The notes under the pieces are model-generated. The model did no database searches and was not told where the DNA came from. It was given only the letters and a program-made list of their open reading frames with translations. From the NCBI GenBank assembly GCA_964409875.1, contig CAYPEN010000001.1, positions 198,637 through 262,636 on the forward strand: a stretch of 64,000 bases of DNA, in the 5' to 3' direction. A program made the position numbers and the translations under genes. This document shows, in pieces, positions 3,039 through 48,457 of this stretch. Source of the DNA: an uncultured Gammaproteobacteria bacterium. GTDB lineage: Bacteria > Patescibacteriota > Microgenomatia > Levybacterales > GWA1-39-11. The first letter of the stretch is position 1; each line of letters starts with the position of its first letter.

Positions 3039-3677
3039 ATGTATAATCATTTTATGCTCGTTTTTATCGATGATTCCGGAGATCCGGGATTTAAATTAGA
3101 AAAAGGTTCCTCAACTCACTTTGTAATATCTTGCATAATTTTTGATGACGATTTGGAAGCAGAAAAAACATCTTTAGCTATTAAAGAACTCAGAAGAAAA
3201 TTAAAAGTTAATGATCGATATGAATTTAAATTTAATAAAACTGATTTACGTTTTAAAAAAGTTTTTTTTGATACGATTTTTCCCTTCAAATTTAGAGTAA
3301 GGGCTATTACGGTTGATAAAACAATAATTCATAGCTCTCGTCTAAGAAATTACAAAGAAAATTTTTATAACTACATCATCATGCAGGTTTTGAAGCAAAG
3401 TAAAGGACATATCAAAAATGCAAGATTAAAATTCGATAAAAGAGGAGAAAAAACATTGAGAGATGAGTTAAGAGTATATTTAAGTCGTGAACTTGATAAT
3501 AGAAGAAATCATATTTTCAGCGATGTAAGATTTGTTGATTCTAGACAGAATACTTTAATTCAACTAGCCGATATGGTTGCCGGCTGTATAACGTCTTTTT
3601 CTAAAGGCAAAGATAGGATTTTCTATAAACAATTAAAGGATAACGGTAGAGTAGAGGATGTCTGGCAGTTTAAATAA
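3039..3677 (+). CDS. DUF3800 family protein
   Basis: N-terminal FIDDSGDPGF motif and ~210 aa length are characteristic of DUF3800. A start at MLVFIDD (3054) is possible. Confidence 0.6.
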   Translation: MYNHFMLVFIDDSGDPGFKLEKGSSTHFVISCIIFDDDLEAEKTSLAIKELRRKLKVNDRYEFKFNKTDLRFKKVFFDTIFPFKFRVRAITVDKTIIHSSRLRNYKENFYNYIIMQVLKQSKGHIKNARLKFDKRGEKTLRDELRVYLSRELDNRRNHIFSDVRFVDSRQNTLIQLADMVAGCITSFSKGKDRIFYKQLKDNGRVEDVWQFK

Positions 3678-3968
3678 TTCGACCCTGCTTTCTATCCAAA
3701 CGTAAGTTTGGAACGCGCACCATACGGTGACAATTCGAAAACAGGGTCTTTGTAAAATTATTATTACATATTGAGAAGTTCTTGTCAATTTCCCCAGCCT
3801 CAAAAAAATTCGCAAAAAACCTCGCTTTCAGGTGCAAGAAGCACTTTGTAATTGTCGTTTTCTCAAGAATTTGAGAATAGAAAGGTGTAACTGAAGGTTG
3901 TCCATGGGTGGTGCCCGCCCCCGGATAGATCCGAGGGCGGACTGGAAGACGGCTGGGAGACGGGAAAC

Positions 3969-30341: not shown

Positions 30342-30872
30342 ATGGTAAGAATAAGAACATCCGAATTCAAAAATTTTGTACTACACAACGGACTATTCAC
30401 TATTTCAGTGAGCCACAAGCGGCATAACACTCATCTCATAATGTCTTTACATACTAATGTTGTGAATACGAAATATCTTCCTATGACAAAAGCATTGTTA
30501 AGACACTATGTGCCGTCTGTTTTTTATTCGAAATGTTTCAATTATGATAATGCACCGTTTCTCATAGAGTCACAACAAACGGAAATTGGTCACCTCTTTG
30601 AACACATTTTGCTTGAATTCTTGTGTCATTTGAAAAGTCATAGGGGAATCAAAAATCCGGTGCATAACGGAGTAACGAGTTGGAACTGGGTGAAGGAGAA
30701 AAAAGGAACATTTAGGATTACCATTGATGTAGGGGACAGCGAGCGTGACATTTTCTTCTTGGCTTTACAGAAAAGTATAGAAATAACTAATAAAATTCTT
30801 TCTTCCCAAGCTGCCTTCCAGCCTCAAAATAACATCCCTATCGAGAGCCTGAATGACTCCCGAATAGGTTAA
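30342..30872 (+). CDS. hypothetical protein
   Basis: ORF 30258-30872. Start chosen at MVRIRTSEF to avoid overlap with the divergent TPR gene. Confidence 0.3.
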   Translation: MVRIRTSEFKNFVLHNGLFTISVSHKRHNTHLIMSLHTNVVNTKYLPMTKALLRHYVPSVFYSKCFNYDNAPFLIESQQTEIGHLFEHILLEFLCHLKSHRGIKNPVHNGVTSWNWVKEKKGTFRITIDVGDSERDIFFLALQKSIEITNKILSSQAAFQPQNNIPIESLNDSRIG

Positions 30873-30874
30873 AA

Positions 30875-31018
30875 TCACCTGTTTCTGCCGCGGTTGCCGG
30901 TTCTATTGCCTGATGATTGGCTACCCGCCATAGCATGTCCTTCAGAGTCCCCGTGCCATCCACGTCCCGGTCCTTTGCTGCTTTGGCCGCCTTTTCTCCC
31001 TCGCTGATTCTGTGGCAT
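30875..31018 (-). CDS. KGG-repeat small stress protein (YciG-like), 47 aa
   Basis: Translated by hand: MPQNQRGRKGGQSSKGPGRGWHGDSEGHAMAGSQSSGNRTGNRGRNR. AAGGAGGTGA lies 5 nt upstream of the ATG. Below the 60-aa ORF-track cutoff. Confidence 0.65.
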   Translation of the reverse strand: MPQNQRGRKGGQSSKGPGRGWHGDSEGHAMAGSQSSGNRTGNRGRNR

Positions 31019-31083
31019 ATTGTTCACCTCCTTCTTTTATCCTCATATAAATTCGTACAGGGATTTTGTCCCTGCACCAGGTT

Positions 31084-31233
31084 TTTAGCTTTGAGACTGT
31101 TGTCCGCCAGTGTCATTGTCATCTTGTGACTCCGATGTCTGGCCGCTCGATTGTCCCCCTTTTGTACCAGTGTCATTAAGATCCTCATTTGTCAGACCTT
31201 CCACGTCATCGTCTGTTGTGTAGTCCATATCAT
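31084..31233 (-). CDS. KGG-repeat small protein (YciG-like), ~49 aa, start ambiguous
   Basis: Frame containing …GTKGGQSSGQTSESQDDNDTGGQQSQS*. The best-positioned ATG (31238-31240) after AAGGGGGTGA is out of frame and hits a stop after 18 codons. The in-frame ATG is at 31231-31233. This may be a frameshift or a poorly spaced start. Confidence 0.45.
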
Positions 31234-31334
31234 TTGCCATATTTTTTCACCCCCTTTTTATACCTGCTTTATAAATTCTGTATAAACGGGAGGAGACTTT
31301 GTATACTTTCTCCCATTTATACGGTTTGAGGAAA

Positions 31335-31487
31335 TTAGTGTTGTCCTCCTTTTTTGCCGGCTTCGCTTGCTTTCTCGCGGTCATTTTTGAAATTTCCACC
31401 GCTTGCTTGTCCGCCTTTACTTGCTATTTCGCGTTGTTTGTCCTCGTCCATTGAGGCAAACCCTCTTTTGCTTTTATTGTCTGCCAT
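31335..31487 (-). CDS. KGG-repeat general stress protein (YciG/YmdF-like), 50 aa
   Basis: Hand translation: MADNKSKRGFASMDEDKQREIASKGGQASGGNFKNDREKASEAGKKGGQH. It matches the E. coli YciG repeat GGNFKND(P/R)E(R/K)ASEAGKKGGQ (from memory). GGAGGTGAGAAAAT precedes the ATG. Confidence 0.7.
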   Translation of the reverse strand: MADNKSKRGFASMDEDKQREIASKGGQASGGNFKNDREKASEAGKKGGQH

Positions 31488-31628
31488 ATTTTCTCACCTC
31501 CATTCTTATCACAAACACCATTCAACCATTCGCTTGTAAGTATTCAATAAAAGTGGTGTAGGGTTTAGGGTATAGCAGAATAAAAATTTCTTGACAGCAA
31601 CATACAGATTCATCTACACTGTGAACAG

Positions 31629-33335
31629 ATGAAAGGGGTTCTCCTCAAGTCAGCTTTTTTTTCGCTATTTGCAGGCTTTCTTTTAATTTGTGCAATGTCC
31701 TCACTGGGTTCTGTGTCGGCTCAGAAGTTGAATAAGACTCTAAGACCCCGTGCGAATCGATTTTTCAAAAACGCATGCTCAGTTCCCATTAATGGATTTG
31801 CCCATTGTCATGCAAAGTTATTGACCGAAAACGATTCTATTTCTCCTTTTGCAGGAAACGCACCAGCCGCAACGAGTATGGGGCCACAACAGCTTCATGG
31901 TGCGTATCAACTTCCTTGCACCCCCGGAGGAGCGGTTTCCGGAGCATGCCCCGCGCCTCAAGCATTTGGACCGCAAACTATTGCCATCATCGACGCGTAC
32001 CATTATCCAACCGTTGAACAGGATTTGGTCGCATACAGCAACCAATTCGGTATTCCTCCCTGCACAAAGGCAAACGGTTGTCTTCAAGTCCTTAACCAAA
32101 ACGGCGGAACCAGTCTTCCTGTTACGGTTAATTCCGGATGGGCTTTGGAAGCGGCTCTTGACGTTCAGGCTGCGCATGCGATTTGTCAAACGTGCAAAAT
32201 TATACTTTTTGAGGCTAACTCAGCAACATACAATGACCTCACGGCAGCAGTCAACACCGCGGCTTCGATGAATGTCACTGCAATTTCAAACAGCTACGGT
32301 TCAAGCGAGTGGAGCGGGCAAACATTTTATGATGCTTTTTATAACCATCCGGGGATAGCAGTTACGGTTTCATCAGGTGACTCAGGATATGCCGCAGGCG
32401 CCCAGTATCCTGCCTCAAGCCCGAATGTCGTGGCTGTCGGTGGAACGACACTTCAGGTATTTTCCGATAACACATACGCCTCAGAATCGGTATGGAATGG
32501 GGCGGGGAGTGGCTGTAGTGGTTATGAGTCCGCATTGCCATTACAAACAGCATTATCTAATTGGGGAAGCACGGGATGCGCAAGGCGTGCTGTCGCAGAC
32601 GTTGCAGCCGTTGCCGACCCGAATACGGGAGCTGCTGTCTATACGACAACTCCCTACAGCGGGCAAACCGGGTGGTTTCAGGTCGGTGGGACAAGTCTTG
32701 CCTCACCCATTGTTGCCGGAGTTTTTGCGCTTACCGGTTTAATTTCTCCCGTTCAAGCAAATACCATTCCATATAGCAATTATTCACCTCTGTCGTTTCA
32801 TGATGTTACAACTGGCAACAACGGAAGTTGTGCGACGGCTCTTTGCAATGGAGGCGTGGGATTTGACGGACCGACTGGGCTAGGGAGCCCGAATGGACTT
32901 GCAGGTTTTGGCGATTTGGCTTTGTCACCCACCCCGACTGCGACCCCAACACCAACAATTACAGTAACTCCCACGCCGACCGCAACACCAACCGCTACAC
33001 CGACTCCTACTGTCACACCGACGGCGACACCGACACCAACGCAAGCGCCGGGTGATACAACACCGCCGAGCGTTACAATCACAAGCCCTTCGAATGGCAG
33101 TTCGGTTTTTAGGAATTTCACCTATACGGTTCGCGCGAATGCAAGCGACAATGTGGGCGTCGCAAAAGTTGAATTTTATATCAATAATGTGCTTCGCTCA
33201 ACCGACACTACCAGCCCGTACACGTCCTCATGGAGAGTTCCGAACGTCAGAAATGCAACGTACACCATAACTGCCAAGGCCTACGACGCATCAGGAAATA
33301 AGTCTTCTGCTTCAGTTACCGTCAAGTCACTATAG
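31629..33335 (+). CDS. secreted S8/S53-family serine peptidase with Thr-Pro linker and C-terminal Ig-like domain
   Basis: Signal peptide, catalytic Ser motif GGTSLASPIVAG, a (TPTA)n linker, then a beta-rich C-terminal domain. Confidence 0.65.
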   Translation: MKGVLLKSAFFSLFAGFLLICAMSSLGSVSAQKLNKTLRPRANRFFKNACSVPINGFAHCHAKLLTENDSISPFAGNAPAATSMGPQQLHGAYQLPCTPGGAVSGACPAPQAFGPQTIAIIDAYHYPTVEQDLVAYSNQFGIPPCTKANGCLQVLNQNGGTSLPVTVNSGWALEAALDVQAAHAICQTCKIILFEANSATYNDLTAAVNTAASMNVTAISNSYGSSEWSGQTFYDAFYNHPGIAVTVSSGDSGYAAGAQYPASSPNVVAVGGTTLQVFSDNTYASESVWNGAGSGCSGYESALPLQTALSNWGSTGCARRAVADVAAVADPNTGAAVYTTTPYSGQTGWFQVGGTSLASPIVAGVFALTGLISPVQANTIPYSNYSPLSFHDVTTGNNGSCATALCNGGVGFDGPTGLGSPNGLAGFGDLALSPTPTATPTPTITVTPTPTATPTATPTPTVTPTATPTPTQAPGDTTPPSVTITSPSNGSSVFRNFTYTVRANASDNVGVAKVEFYINNVLRSTDTTSPYTSSWRVPNVRNATYTITAKAYDASGNKSSASVTVKSL

Positions 33336-43742: not shown

Positions 43743-43835
43743 GAATAGCTCATGAAGGCGTTTCATTTTCTGCAACTTTGATGTAAAATAGCTGTATCCC
43801 ATATTATGGGAATTTTTAAGGAGGTGTTCTATTGT

Positions 43836-44021
43836 ATGGTTTTTGTAAAAAAGCAACCCGGGGACAGTCCCGACCAAATGATACGGAAATTTTCGAGAAA
43901 AGTGATGTCTGAAGGCATTATTATGGAGATGAAGAAGAGGGAATTCCACCTCAAACCATCTCTTTCAAAAAAATTCAAAAAAGAGCTTGCACGGAAAATG
44001 AACAAGCACAATAATTATTAA
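43836..44021 (+). CDS. rpsU: 30S ribosomal protein S21
   Basis: …IRKFSRKVMSEGI…KKREFHLKPSLSKKFKKELARKMNKHNNY matches the S21 pattern. Start chosen at MVFVKK. Confidence 0.8.
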   Translation: MVFVKKQPGDSPDQMIRKFSRKVMSEGIIMEMKKREFHLKPSLSKKFKKELARKMNKHNNY

Positions 44022-48166: not shown

Positions 48167-48457
48167 ATGATAAATCCATTCAAACAAGCAGCAGAAATCA
48201 AAAAACTCCGCGATCAGGCAAAAAGAATTCAAGACGAACTAGCACAAATTGAGGTTGAAGTTGAGAAGGGAAGAGTAAGAATTGTTATGAGCGGTGACAT
48301 GAAGGTAAAAACGCTTGAAATCAACGGAGAGGAAATGAAAGATGCAAAAGACGCAGTCAATGAAGCAGTAGACAAAGCCCAGAAGAAGTCGGCCCAGAAG
48401 ATGCAACAGATGGGTGGCGGGCTCCAGGAGCTTTTGAGCGGACTCGGCCAAGGCTAA
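48167..48457 (+). CDS. ybaB: nucleoid-associated protein YbaB/EbfC family
   Basis: 96 aa. …QAKRIQDELAQIEVEVEKGRVRIVMSGDMKVKTLEINGE… and a C-terminal MGGGLQ tail typical of YbaB. Confidence 0.8.
   Translation: MINPFKQAAEIKKLRDQAKRIQDELAQIEVEVEKGRVRIVMSGDMKVKTLEINGEEMKDAKDAVNEAVDKAQKKSAQKMQQMGGGLQELLSGLGQG

What the first reader, a model, noticed from the sequence alone, without database searches (positions are those of the whole stretch)
30875..31487. Tandem trio of KGG-repeat (YciG-like) small stress proteins missed by the ORF track
Three minus-strand mini-genes (47, ~49 and 50 aa) each follow a strong Shine-Dalgarno (AAGGAGGTGA, AAGGGGGTGA, GGAGGTGAGAA) and encode KGGQ/SGGN repeat peptides. 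The third matches the E. coli YciG repeat almost residue for residue (GGNFKNDREKASEAGKKGGQH). The middle gene has a possible frameshift: the best-spaced ATG is out of frame with the KGG-containing frame. The ORF-track entries on the opposite strand (30917-31129 and 31354-31539) are antisense artefacts of these genes.
Basis: seen in the sequence. Interest (0 to 1): 0.6.

Follow-up and report, generated by a model that had tools for sequence, protein, structure and literature searches.

The report
Three tandem mini stress-protein genes
Three real back-to-back mini-genes (47-51 codons) in a probable Levybacteria (candidate phyla radiation) genome encode very water-loving, largely unstructured proteins; one is an ordinary YciG-type general stress protein, and the other two belong to small unnamed families that travel with it.

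Summary
The three minus-strand mini-genes exist as described. Each has a strong Shine-Dalgarno site and an ATG 5-6 nt downstream. All three evolve under purifying selection in related genomes; for g1, 23 codons changed synonymously and 1 non-synonymously over the 47-codon block (0 in the gapped protein alignment).

Only the upstream gene (g3, 31335-31487) is a true KGG/YciG-family member (Pfam PF10685, E=9e-20; 16/20 identical to an E. coli YciG repeat). The middle gene (g2, 31085-31240) has no frameshift: its best-spaced ATG is in frame with KGGQ. It is a very acidic protein (pI 4.05) seen only in this narrow clade, and it shares just a KGGQSS core with KGG repeats. The downstream gene (g1, 30875-31017) is very basic (pI 12). 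It carries an invariant GRGWHGDSEGHA motif absent from Pfam and NCBIfam but found across several phyla. Elsewhere that motif is fused or adjacent to KGG repeats, hemerythrin, DUF892 (YciE/F) and YflT stress domains.

The plus-strand ORFs are antisense by-products.

Best reading: a modular array of intrinsically disordered hydrophilin-type stress proteins, probably driven from one upstream promoter. Stress function and expression are inferred, not shown. Modest novelty.

The parts
31335..31487 (-). g3: 50-aa KGG/YciG-family general stress protein (two KGG repeats), stop codon included
   Evidence: ORF. Pfam PF10685 E=9e-20, 70.9 bits against a cut-off of 20.4, 2 stretches. 1820 homologues, many named 'general stress protein YciG'. 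16/20 identical to an E. coli YciG repeat. Synonymous/non-synonymous 10/4 vs L005 and 11/5 vs L001.
31494..31501 (-). Shine-Dalgarno GGAGGTGA of g3, 6 nt before the ATG
31085..31240 (-). g2: 51-aa highly acidic mini-protein (pI 4.05, charge -12.5) with the conserved core DD-EGLTNEDLN-TG-KGGQSS; in frame, no frameshift
   Evidence: ORF. Homologues P0013-P0015 and copies in L005, L006, L065 and L066. Alignment A3. L005 vs L006: 20 synonymous and 3 non-synonymous codon changes. No Pfam or NCBIfam hit.
31247..31254 (-). Shine-Dalgarno GGGGGTGA of g2, 6 nt before the ATG
30875..31017 (-). g1: 47-aa highly basic Gly-rich mini-protein (pI 12, 25.5% Gly) with the invariant GRGWHGDSEGHA motif. The GTG at 31027 lies inside the SD and is not the start.
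   Evidence: ORF. Family alignment A1. 23 synonymous changes vs L005, with 0 non-synonymous in the gapped alignment and 1 in the ungapped 47-codon block. 60 loci among GTDB species genomes. 89 clusters at 50% identity. No Pfam or NCBIfam hit. This exact protein is absent from the 15-billion-protein collection.
31024..31031 (-). Shine-Dalgarno GGAGGTGA of g1, 5 nt before the ATG
31280..31322 (-). 13-bp stem-loop after g3 (GTATAAATGGGAG...CTCCCGTTTATAC) followed by AGAATTTATA
   Evidence: Fold -17.5 kcal/mol, z=-4.3. The stem is nearly invariant in 5 related loci. Inverted repeat I4.
31055..31077 (-). 9-bp stem-loop after g2 (GTGCAGGGA...TCCCTGTAC) followed by GAATTTATAT
   Evidence: Terminator-like hit. 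Fold z=-3.3. Kept in 5 loci with one compensatory UA<->CG pair.
30837..30868 (-). Stem-loop after g1, overlapping the 3' end of the convergent gene; likely end of the array
   Evidence: Fold -20.4 kcal/mol, z=-2.2. The L005 counterpart is a clean hairpin plus T-tract, z=-4.8.
31520..31550 (-). Conserved upstream block TTATTGAATACTTACAAGCGAATGGTTGAAT; candidate promoter of the array (inferred)
   Evidence: Conserved in the window, L001 and L005. Retained directly upstream of g2 in L006, where g3 is missing. Unique in the window. Not detected by the sigma-70 consensus scan.

Best explanation
The locus is a co-oriented, modular array of three very small, strongly hydrophilic, largely disordered proteins of the general-stress 'hydrophilin' type. 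It sits in a probable Candidatus Levybacteria (Patescibacteria/CPR) genome.

g3 is a standard two-repeat KGG/YciG protein. g1 is a stand-alone copy of a widespread but unnamed GW[HFY]GD[SP]EGHA motif. In other bacteria this motif is fused or adjacent to KGG repeats and to other stress domains. g2 is a clade-restricted, extremely acidic protein built around a single KGG-like core.

Each gene is one module: a strong SD, an ATG, an ORF and a stem-loop. The array is most likely transcribed from one conserved promoter region upstream of g3. The stem-loops would then act as leaky terminators or as 3' stabilisers of the mRNA.

By analogy with YciG, YmdF and GsiB, the products would accumulate under stress or in non-growing cells and would protect cell components or adjust physiology without enzymatic activity.

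Shown here: coding status, family assignments, selection, conservation of the array, and predicted disorder. Inferred: the promoter, co-transcription, stress induction and the protective mechanism.
For: CODING.
- The gene-strand frame is the only one open in all orthologs, and it has the best synonymous/non-synonymous ratio.
- The three SDs are the strongest of their kind in the window.

FAMILY.
- g3 hits PF10685 at E=9e-20 and is 80% identical to a YciG repeat.
- All three meet the hydrophilin criteria: GRAVY -1.58 to -1.87 and Gly 13.7-25.5%.
- AlphaFold2 gives g1 a mean pLDDT of 58 with no secondary structure. It gives g3 a pLDDT of 65 with two short helices.

ASSOCIATION OF THE WHGD MOTIF WITH STRESS PROTEINS.
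- It is fused to KGG repeats in L062 and P0158.
- It is fused to Hemerythrin, to DUF892, the YciE/YciF family (E=3.5e-58), and to YflT.
- A same-strand KGG gene lies next to the WHGD gene in L001, L004, L005, L033, L054 and L066.

ARRAY CONSERVATION.
- The full trio occurs in the window, L005 and L066. L065 carries g2 and g1.
- L001 lacks g2. L006 lacks g3 but keeps the same upstream block.
- The stem-loops are conserved.

LITERATURE.
- KGG proteins are RpoS-regulated. They are reported as intrinsically disordered and as contributing to heat, acid and antimicrobial-peptide resistance, motility and biofilm formation (PMC7161692, PMC9262955).
Against: - No expression or stress-induction data exist for this organism.
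- The sigma-70 consensus scan found no promoter on the minus strand. The proposed promoter rests only on conservation.
- g1 and g2 fail the KGG family test, so their 'stress protein' label rests on fusion and neighbourhood evidence.
- Only 7 of 66 WHGD loci carry a stringent KGG repeat, either fused or within 1.5 kb on the same strand. Most Pontibacter loci have none.
- The near-absolute conservation of the g1 motif across phyla fits a specific binding site better than a non-specific 'molecular shield'.
- The molecular mechanism of KGG proteins themselves is still unknown (PMC7161692).
Confidence: 0.72

Rival explanations
1. g1 and g2 work as an oppositely charged pair. The polyanionic g2 (-12.5) neutralises, chaperones or forms condensates with the polycationic g1 (+6.7). 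The array would then be a charge-balanced system rather than three independent protectants.
For: The charges are extreme and opposite. Wherever g2 is found it lies immediately upstream of g1. Multi-repeat WHGD proteins alternate basic WHGD motifs with poly-Asp tracts in the same chain (P0138, P0140, P0141). P0157 has a 'SDDEGLVD' linker that resembles g2's 'DDVEGLTNED'.
Against: L001 and many other lineages have g1-type genes without any g2, so pairing is not obligatory. g2 was not found outside a handful of close relatives. No interaction was tested.
Confidence: 0.12
2. g1 (and perhaps g3) is a nucleic-acid- or ribosome-binding small basic protein, or a metal-binding one, rather than a general protectant. 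The invariant W-H-G-D-S-E-G-H would be a specific ligand site and the Arg-rich tail would bind RNA or DNA.
For: Twelve columns of the motif are invariant across phyla. 23 synonymous codon changes between the window and L005 come with at most one amino-acid change. pI is 12 and the C-terminus reads NRTGNRGRNR. His, Asp, Glu and His alternate in the motif. Two fusion partners, hemerythrin and DUF892, are metal-binding domains (that they bind iron is from general knowledge).
Against: No similarity to any solved structure or to a known ribosomal or nucleoid protein. AlphaFold2 predicts no structure. The Arg-rich tail is replaced by 'SQSHKNK' in most family members, so it is not a family feature.
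Confidence: 0.1
3. g2 is not a functional protein. It would be a decaying duplicate of a neighbouring gene, or a short ORF kept only because its translation affects expression of g1.
For: Its distribution is very narrow. It is absent from the otherwise syntenic L001. Its C-terminal tail is poorly conserved and carries indels. Its RBS and first codons resemble those of g3 (D1, 80% over 30 nt).
Against: The core DD-EGLTNEDLN-TG-KGGQSS is invariant in 5 distinct sequences. Changes are 11 synonymous and 0 non-synonymous in the core, and 20/3 overall between L005 and L006. All indels are multiples of three. It has its own strong SD.
Confidence: 0.05
4. The small ORFs are precursor peptides (RiPP or bacteriocin) processed by the divergently transcribed subtilisin-like protease at 31629-33335. 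Alternatively, the plus-strand ORFs are the real genes.
For: Tandem ORFs of about 50 aa lie next to a secreted S8 protease. Plus-strand ORFs of 61 and 70 aa exist.
Against: There are no modifying enzymes, transporters, Cys residues or leader motifs nearby. g3 is an unambiguous KGG stress protein. The protease neighbour is not conserved: L004 has a release-factor-like gene there and L002 has rpoB/rpoC. The plus-strand ORFs start with TTG, lack an SD and a Pfam hit, and acquire stops and many amino-acid changes in orthologs.
Confidence: 0.02

Closest known systems
YciG / YmdF / STM1513 (SEN1538) of E. coli and Salmonella; PA2146 of Pseudomonas (Pfam KGG, PF10685)
   Same: g3 is a 50-aa protein with two KGG repeats. 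One repeat is 80% identical to a YciG repeat. It is hydrophilic and weakly structured. As in enterobacteria, several paralogous or related mini-proteins coexist in one genome (PMC7161692, PMC9262955).
   Different: The enterobacterial paralogues are dispersed and RpoS-dependent, and yciG sits in the yciGFE operon. Here the genes form a tandem array with two non-KGG partners, in a genome-reduced CPR bacterium. g3 lacks the YciG C-terminal GGNKSGKS (Walker-like) tail. Regulation is unknown.
GsiB of Bacillus subtilis and bacterial hydrophilins / LEA-like proteins
   Same: Small, Gly-rich, highly hydrophilic and disordered. GRAVY is below -1.5 and Gly above 13% for all three. GsiB is a multi-repeat KGG-type, sigma-B-dependent protein (general knowledge; it is listed with hydrophilins in the LEA literature found).
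   Different: GsiB is one longer protein with many repeats. Here the repeats are spread over three separate genes with contrasting net charges (+2.6, -12.5, +6.7).
WHGD+KGG fusion proteins, e.g. Chthonomonas calidirosea CCW35695.1 (P0226, 'Stress-induced bacterial acidophilic repeat motif'), the Saccharibacteria L062 72-aa protein, and P0158
   Same: They carry the same GRGW[HF]GD[SP]EGHA(K/R)AG motif as g1, directly followed by KGG-type repeats. P0158 carries g1-like, g2-like and g3-like segments in one 73-aa chain.
   Different: In the window the modules are separate genes. In g1 the motif is followed by AGSQSSGN rather than AGRKGG.
Stand-alone WHGD mini-proteins, e.g. Pontibacter arcticus WP_207801924.1 ('hypothetical protein')
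   Same: A single GRGWHGD(S/P)EGHA(R/K)AGSQS motif near the C-terminus of a 30-100-aa low-complexity protein.
   Different: They have N/Q/S-rich N-termini and a SQSHKNK ending, and no adjacent KGG gene. They are only 50-65% identical to g1.

Membership tests
Pfam KGG (PF10685) / YciG family - g3 | Significant match to the PF10685 repeat model above the gathering score | tested here: met
   70.9 bits against a cut-off of 20.4, E=9e-20, two stretches. 1820 homologues carry PF10685.
Pfam KGG (PF10685) / YciG family - g3 | Direct similarity to the type protein E. coli YciG | tested here: met
   BLASTP gives 49% over 43 aa and 16/20 over one repeat, using the yciG CDS of NC_000913.3.
Pfam KGG (PF10685) / YciG family - g3 | Walker-A-like tail after the last KGG (QSGGNKSGKS in YciG; described in PMC9262955) | tested here: not met
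   g3 ends ...KKGGQH. The tail is also absent from YmdF, PA2146 and SEN1538, so it does not define the family as a whole.
Pfam KGG (PF10685) / YciG family - g3 | Stress or stationary-phase induction (RpoS / sigma-B regulon) | not testable with these tools
   No expression data. No recognisable alternative-sigma promoter.
Pfam KGG (PF10685) - g2 | Significant match to the KGG repeat model | tested here: not met
   No Pfam hit at E<=10. hhalign vs the KGG alignment: 14 columns, probability 11.6%. Own repeat HMM: 4.4 bits over 7 residues, with 3 of 2000 shuffles at least as good. BLASTP vs YciG: 9/15, pairwise E=3e-4.
Pfam KGG (PF10685) - g1 | Significant match to the KGG repeat model | tested here: not met
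   No Pfam hit at E<=10. hhalign probability 0.15%. Own repeat HMM: 6.7 bits over 8 residues, with 5 of 2000 shuffles at least as good. BLASTP vs YciG: E=0.53.
WHGD-motif family (unnamed; defined here by alignment A1) | Invariant G-W-x-G-D-S-x-G-H-A-x-A core in a short low-complexity protein | tested here: met
   g1 carries all invariant columns. Profile search: 89 clusters at E<=1e-3. 60 genome loci.
Hydrophilins (Gly >6%, mean hydrophilicity >1; criteria recalled from Garay-Arroyo et al. 2000) | Composition thresholds | tested here: met
   g3: GRAVY -1.59, Gly 16%. g2: -1.58, 13.7%. g1: -1.87, 25.5%.
Hydrophilins / intrinsically disordered stress proteins | Lack of a stable fold | tested here: inconclusive
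   AlphaFold2 gives g1 pLDDT 58 with no secondary structure. It gives g3 pLDDT 65 with two short helices. This is prediction only. g2 was not modelled.
Hydrophilins / LEA-like | Accumulation under water deficit and protection of enzymes in vitro | not testable with these tools
   Requires experiments.

The most novel reading that the evidence does not exclude
The GW[HFY]GD[SP]EGHA motif defines a new, phylum-spanning general-stress module with a specific ligand, a metal ion or a conserved macromolecule. In this Levybacteria clade it has been split from its usual acidic and KGG neighbours into separate genes. A polycationic g1 and a polyanionic g2 would then act together as a two-component disordered system, for example a stress-triggered complex coacervate.
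Probability: 0.12. Interest if true: 0.6.

Novelty: new variant of a known kind. Interest (0 to 1): 0.35.

Why it matters
KGG/YciG proteins are among the most strongly stress-induced small proteins of bacteria, yet their mechanism is unknown. This locus shows three things.

- Genome-reduced CPR bacteria keep such proteins and give them unusually strong ribosome-binding sites.
- A second motif family, GWHGDSEGHA, is highly conserved, absent from Pfam and NCBIfam, and annotated only as 'hypothetical protein'. It repeatedly accompanies KGG repeats and other stress domains (hemerythrin, DUF892/YciEF, YflT).
- Annotation pipelines with length cut-offs miss these genes or mis-start them. g1 of this genome is absent from a 15-billion-protein collection, and g2 was called from its second ATG.

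Defining the WHGD family would improve annotation of many genomes. It would also give a compact 20-residue motif for biochemical tests of how bacterial hydrophilins work.

Tried and rejected
- **Frameshift or homopolymer error in g2.** Rejected. The reading frame is continuous from the SD-spaced ATG, and homologues share the MAN... start.
- **Plus-strand ORFs as genes.** Rejected.
- **g1 and g2 as divergent KGG members.** Pfam, NCBIfam, hhalign and my own repeat HMM recognise only the KGGQSS core.
- **Exact-sequence look-ups** of the three window proteins found no encoding contig. However, g3 and an N-terminally shortened g2 are present as P0016 and P0013, from an NCBI contig of 423,548 bp.
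- **JGI metagenome scan for g2 relatives.** Nothing found.
- **Rfam.** Nothing in 30600-31800 even at E<=1. No tRNA in the window.
- **Sigma-70 consensus scan.** No minus-strand promoter upstream of the array.
- **A shared regulon motif.** The conserved upstream block occurs only once in the window and exactly in only one other locus.
- **PDB sequence searches** for both families found no relatives.
- **Literature.** Nothing on the GWHGD motif in bacterial proteins or on KGG proteins in CPR.
- **RiPP-precursor reading.** Rejected for lack of any maturation genes and because the protease neighbour is not conserved.
- **Duplication origin of g2 from g3.** Only short RBS/N-terminal similarity. 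Left open.
Full report
**What is there**

Reading 30700-31700 on the minus strand and listing all ORFs of at least 20 aa shows three co-oriented mini-genes.

| Gene | Coordinates | Length | Sequence | SD and spacing |
|---|---|---|---|---|
| g3 | 31335-31487 | 50 aa | MADNKSKRGFASMDEDKQREIASKGGQASGGNFKNDREKASEAGKKGGQH | GGAGGTGA, 6 nt before ATG |
| g2 | 31085-31240 | 51 aa | MANDMDYTTDDDVEGLTNEDLNDTGTKGGQSSGQTSESQDDNDTGGQQSQS | GGGGGTGA, 6 nt before ATG |
| g1 | 30875-31017 | 47 aa from the ATG | MPQNQRGRKGGQSSKGPGRGWHGDSEGHAMAGSQSSGNRTGNRGRNR | GGAGGTGA, 5 nt before ATG |

- In the whole window, on both strands, this combination of SD 8-mer, spacing and ATG occurs only at these three sites. 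Weaker GGAGGTG sites precede the genes for ribosomal protein bS21 and a YbaB-like protein.
- The GTG at 31027 that the mechanical ORF list uses for g1 lies inside the SD itself. It is not the start.
- The default ORF threshold of 60 aa explains why only the two plus-strand ORFs (30917-31129 and 31354-31539, both TTG-started) appeared on an ORF track.

**No frameshift**

The ATG at 31240 reads straight through the KGGQ motif to the TAA. There is no homopolymer run at 31195-31205. All homologues begin MAN(N/D). A public gene call for this genome (P0013, 47 aa) starts at the second ATG, and this is probably a mis-start.

**Are they genes?**

Related loci were fetched through exact-protein look-ups and a scan of GTDB species genomes.

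| Locus | Content |
|---|---|
| Window, L005, L066 | g3, g2, g1 (full trio) |
| L065 | g2, g1 |
| L006 | g2, g1 (record titled Candidatus Levyibacteriota) |
| L001 | g3, g1 |
| L003, L004 | an 87-aa KGG protein followed by a g1 homologue |

Substitutions in gapped protein alignments fall overwhelmingly on third codon positions of the minus-strand frames:

| Comparison | Synonymous | Non-synonymous |
|---|---|---|
| g1, window vs L005 | 23 | 0 |
| g1, window vs L001 | 26 | 2 |
| g3, window vs L005 | 10 | 4 |
| g2, L005 vs L006 | 20 | 3 |

Over ungapped blocks I scored all six frames. The gene frame is the only one free of stops in every ortholog, and it always has the best ratio; there g1 (window vs L005) scores 23/1. 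The wobble-sharing antisense frame comes second, as geometry predicts. It takes 6-11 amino-acid changes in most g1 comparisons (only 1 between the near-identical L005 and L006) and contains stop codons. The two plus-strand ORFs have no Pfam match. All three genes are therefore real coding sequences, and the plus-strand ORFs are by-products of codon composition.

**What are they?**

*g3* is a textbook KGG protein.
- PF10685: E=9e-20, two repeats.
- 1820 homologues, many named 'general stress protein YciG'.
- 16/20 identical to one repeat of E. coli K-12 YciG.
- It lacks YciG's Walker-like C-terminal tail, as do YmdF, PA2146 and SEN1538.

*g1 and g2* do not pass the family test.
- No Pfam or NCBIfam hit, even at E<=10.
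- Profile-profile probabilities against a 28-sequence KGG alignment are 0.15% for g1 and 11.6% for g2, the latter over only 14 columns.
- A repeat HMM I built from 163 KGG repeats recognises only the KGGQSS core: 6.7 and 4.4 bits. That is better than all but 5 and 3 of 2000 shuffles.

*The g1 family.* It is defined by an invariant G-W-x-G-D-S-x-G-H-A-x-A core (alignment A1).
- A profile search of 1.84 billion cluster representatives finds 89 clusters at E<=1e-3.
- The genome scan finds 60 loci: Pontibacter, several CPR phyla (Saccharibacteria, Levyibacteriota, Doudnabacteria, Peribacteria), Chthonomonadales, Caulobacterales and other Alphaproteobacteria, plus single Burkholderiaceae, Bacteroidia and actinobacterial (Schumannella) loci.
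- Members are either mini-proteins of 31-100 aa or long proteins with 2-6 copies of the motif.
- Stand-alone members are annotated 'hypothetical protein', for example Pontibacter arcticus WP_207801924.1.
- I found no paper on the motif and no solved structure.
- Domain context ties it to stress biology. It is fused to KGG repeats (L062; P0158; the Chthonomonas proteins that UniRef names 'Stress-induced bacterial acidophilic repeat motif'). It is fused to Hemerythrin (P0142, P0143, L017, L063), to DUF892, the family of YciE/YciF that partner yciG in the E. coli operon (L040, E=3.5e-58; one search shows the operon), and to YflT (L041, a Levyibacteriota MAG).
- With a stringent criterion, a same-strand KGG gene lies within 1.5 kb of the WHGD gene in 6 of 66 loci, and the two are fused in one. 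All seven are CPR lineages.

*The g2 family.* It is tiny: three database proteins plus the copies in L005 and L006.
- A JGI metagenome scan found nothing.
- The core DD-EGLTNEDLN-TG-KGGQSS is invariant. The acidic tail varies by in-frame indels.
- It always lies immediately upstream of g1.
- P0158, a single 73-aa protein, contains in order a g1-like segment, a g2-like segment (ENLDDEDRSKGGSASGGN) and a g3-like repeat. This suggests the three window genes are diverged modules of one repeat superfamily. That is inference, not a significant alignment.

**Physical properties**

| Gene | pI | Net charge | GRAVY | Gly |
|---|---|---|---|---|
| g3 | 9.5 | +2.6 | -1.59 | 16% |
| g2 | 4.05 | -12.5 | -1.58 | 13.7% |
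| g1 | 12.0 | +6.7 | -1.87 | 25.5% |

- All three satisfy the hydrophilin composition criteria (criteria recalled from the literature).
- AlphaFold2 with family alignments gives g1 a pLDDT of 58 and no secondary structure. It gives g3 a pLDDT of 65 with one short helix per repeat.

**Gene organisation**

- Each ORF is followed by a stable stem-loop, with z-scores of -4.3, -3.3 and -2.2 against shuffles. The L005 counterparts score -4.0, -4.4 and -4.8.
- The first stem (13 bp) is almost invariant in five loci, even though the neighbouring wobble positions have diverged.
- The second stem keeps pairing through one compensatory change.
- Stems 1 and 2 have the same design, GTATA(AAT)GGGAG...CTCCC(GTT)TATAC followed by GAATTTATA. 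So the unit 'stem-loop, spacer, SD' looks duplicated around g2.
- A 31-nt block upstream of g3 is conserved in L001 and L005. In L006, where g3 is missing, it sits directly upstream of g2. It is unique in the window.
- I therefore infer one promoter upstream of the array, with the stem-loops acting as leaky terminators or mRNA stabilisers. This is not shown: the sigma-70 consensus scan did not call a promoter on the minus strand.
- Rfam has nothing in this region.
- Loss of g2 in L001 and of g3 in L006 shows that the modules are individually dispensable.

**Source organism**

G+C is 41.7%. The closest loci are a Candidatus Levyibacteriota MAG (L006) and L005. L005 is titled 'uncultured Gammaproteobacteria' but is syntenic with the Levyibacteriota locus. 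The window is therefore most likely from a Levybacteria (Microgenomates, Patescibacteria) genome. g3 and a shortened g2 are present in the public protein collection from an NCBI contig of 423,548 bp. g1 of this genome is not present.

**Mechanism and its limits**

From the literature, KGG proteins are RpoS-controlled and are reported to be intrinsically disordered. Mutants lose resistance to heat, acid and antimicrobial peptides, and are altered in motility and biofilm formation. [quoted passage not shown]

The best-supported reading is that the array supplies three abundant disordered hydrophilins for stress or dormancy protection in a bacterium with very few other stress systems.

Two features go beyond that and are recorded as rivals:
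- The cross-phylum invariance of the g1 motif suggests a specific ligand.
- The opposite extreme charges of g1 and g2 suggest a pair.

The RiPP-precursor idea and the plus-strand reading are rejected.

**Verdict**

- The 'KGG trio' label is only one-third right, and the frameshift is not there.
- Novelty is modest. g3 is a new member of a known family. It is accompanied by a member of a widespread but undescribed motif family and by a clade-specific acidic protein, in a modular tandem arrangement.

Noticed in passing
window 3677-3748 (-): Match to the Rfam DUF3800-IX RNA motif (RF02968): 64.4 bits against a gathering score of 36.8. It is the only Rfam hit in the window.
   Followed up: no
window 30342-30872 (+): A 176-aa gene lies convergent with g1, and the two stop codons are 2 nt apart. 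The same convergent partner follows the g1 homologue in L001, L003, L004, L065 and L066. Its only family signal is a weak match to the cyanophycin-synthase-like N-terminal domain (PF18921, E=1.2e-3, below the cut-off).
   Followed up: partly
window 31629-33335 (+): A divergently transcribed, signal-peptide-bearing S8 subtilase with a long Pro/Thr-rich linker and a C-terminal Big_7 domain. A TTGACA-18-TACACT promoter-like site lies at 31591-31620. The gene is conserved next to the array in L001 but not in L002 or L004.
   Followed up: partly
L005 (CAZMSF010000037.1): The record is titled 'uncultured Gammaproteobacteria bacterium'. Yet it carries the same trio in the same order, its g1 is 100% identical to the window's over the 46 residues matched by tblastn, and it aligns with a Candidatus Levyibacteriota MAG (L006). 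This is probably a taxonomic mislabel of the MAG.
   Followed up: no
L040 3035-4102; L017 3047-4552; L063 2351-4231; L041 3305-4090; P0142, P0143: WHGD-motif repeats form C-terminal tails on DUF892 (YciE/YciF family), Hemerythrin and YflT stress-protein domains. This gives a domain-fusion link between the unnamed motif and classical general-stress proteins.
   Followed up: partly
P0158 (73 aa, JGI metagenome); P0157 / L046 3992-4228: P0158 combines g1-like, g2-like and g3-like segments in one chain. P0157 has two WHGD motifs joined by an acidic 'SDDEGLVD...' linker that resembles the g2 core.
   Followed up: no
L001 5746-6147; L006 3150-3730: Presence/absence polymorphism of the modules. L001 has g3 and g1 without g2. 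L006 has g2 and g1 without g3, and there the conserved g3 upstream block is joined directly to g2.
   Followed up: yes
window 43806-44021 (+) and 48167-48457 (+): The only other GGAGGTG Shine-Dalgarno sites followed by an ATG precede a bS21-like ribosomal protein gene and a YbaB/EbfC-like gene. In this window such strong sites therefore mark small, probably abundant proteins (protein identities judged by eye, not tested).
   Followed up: no
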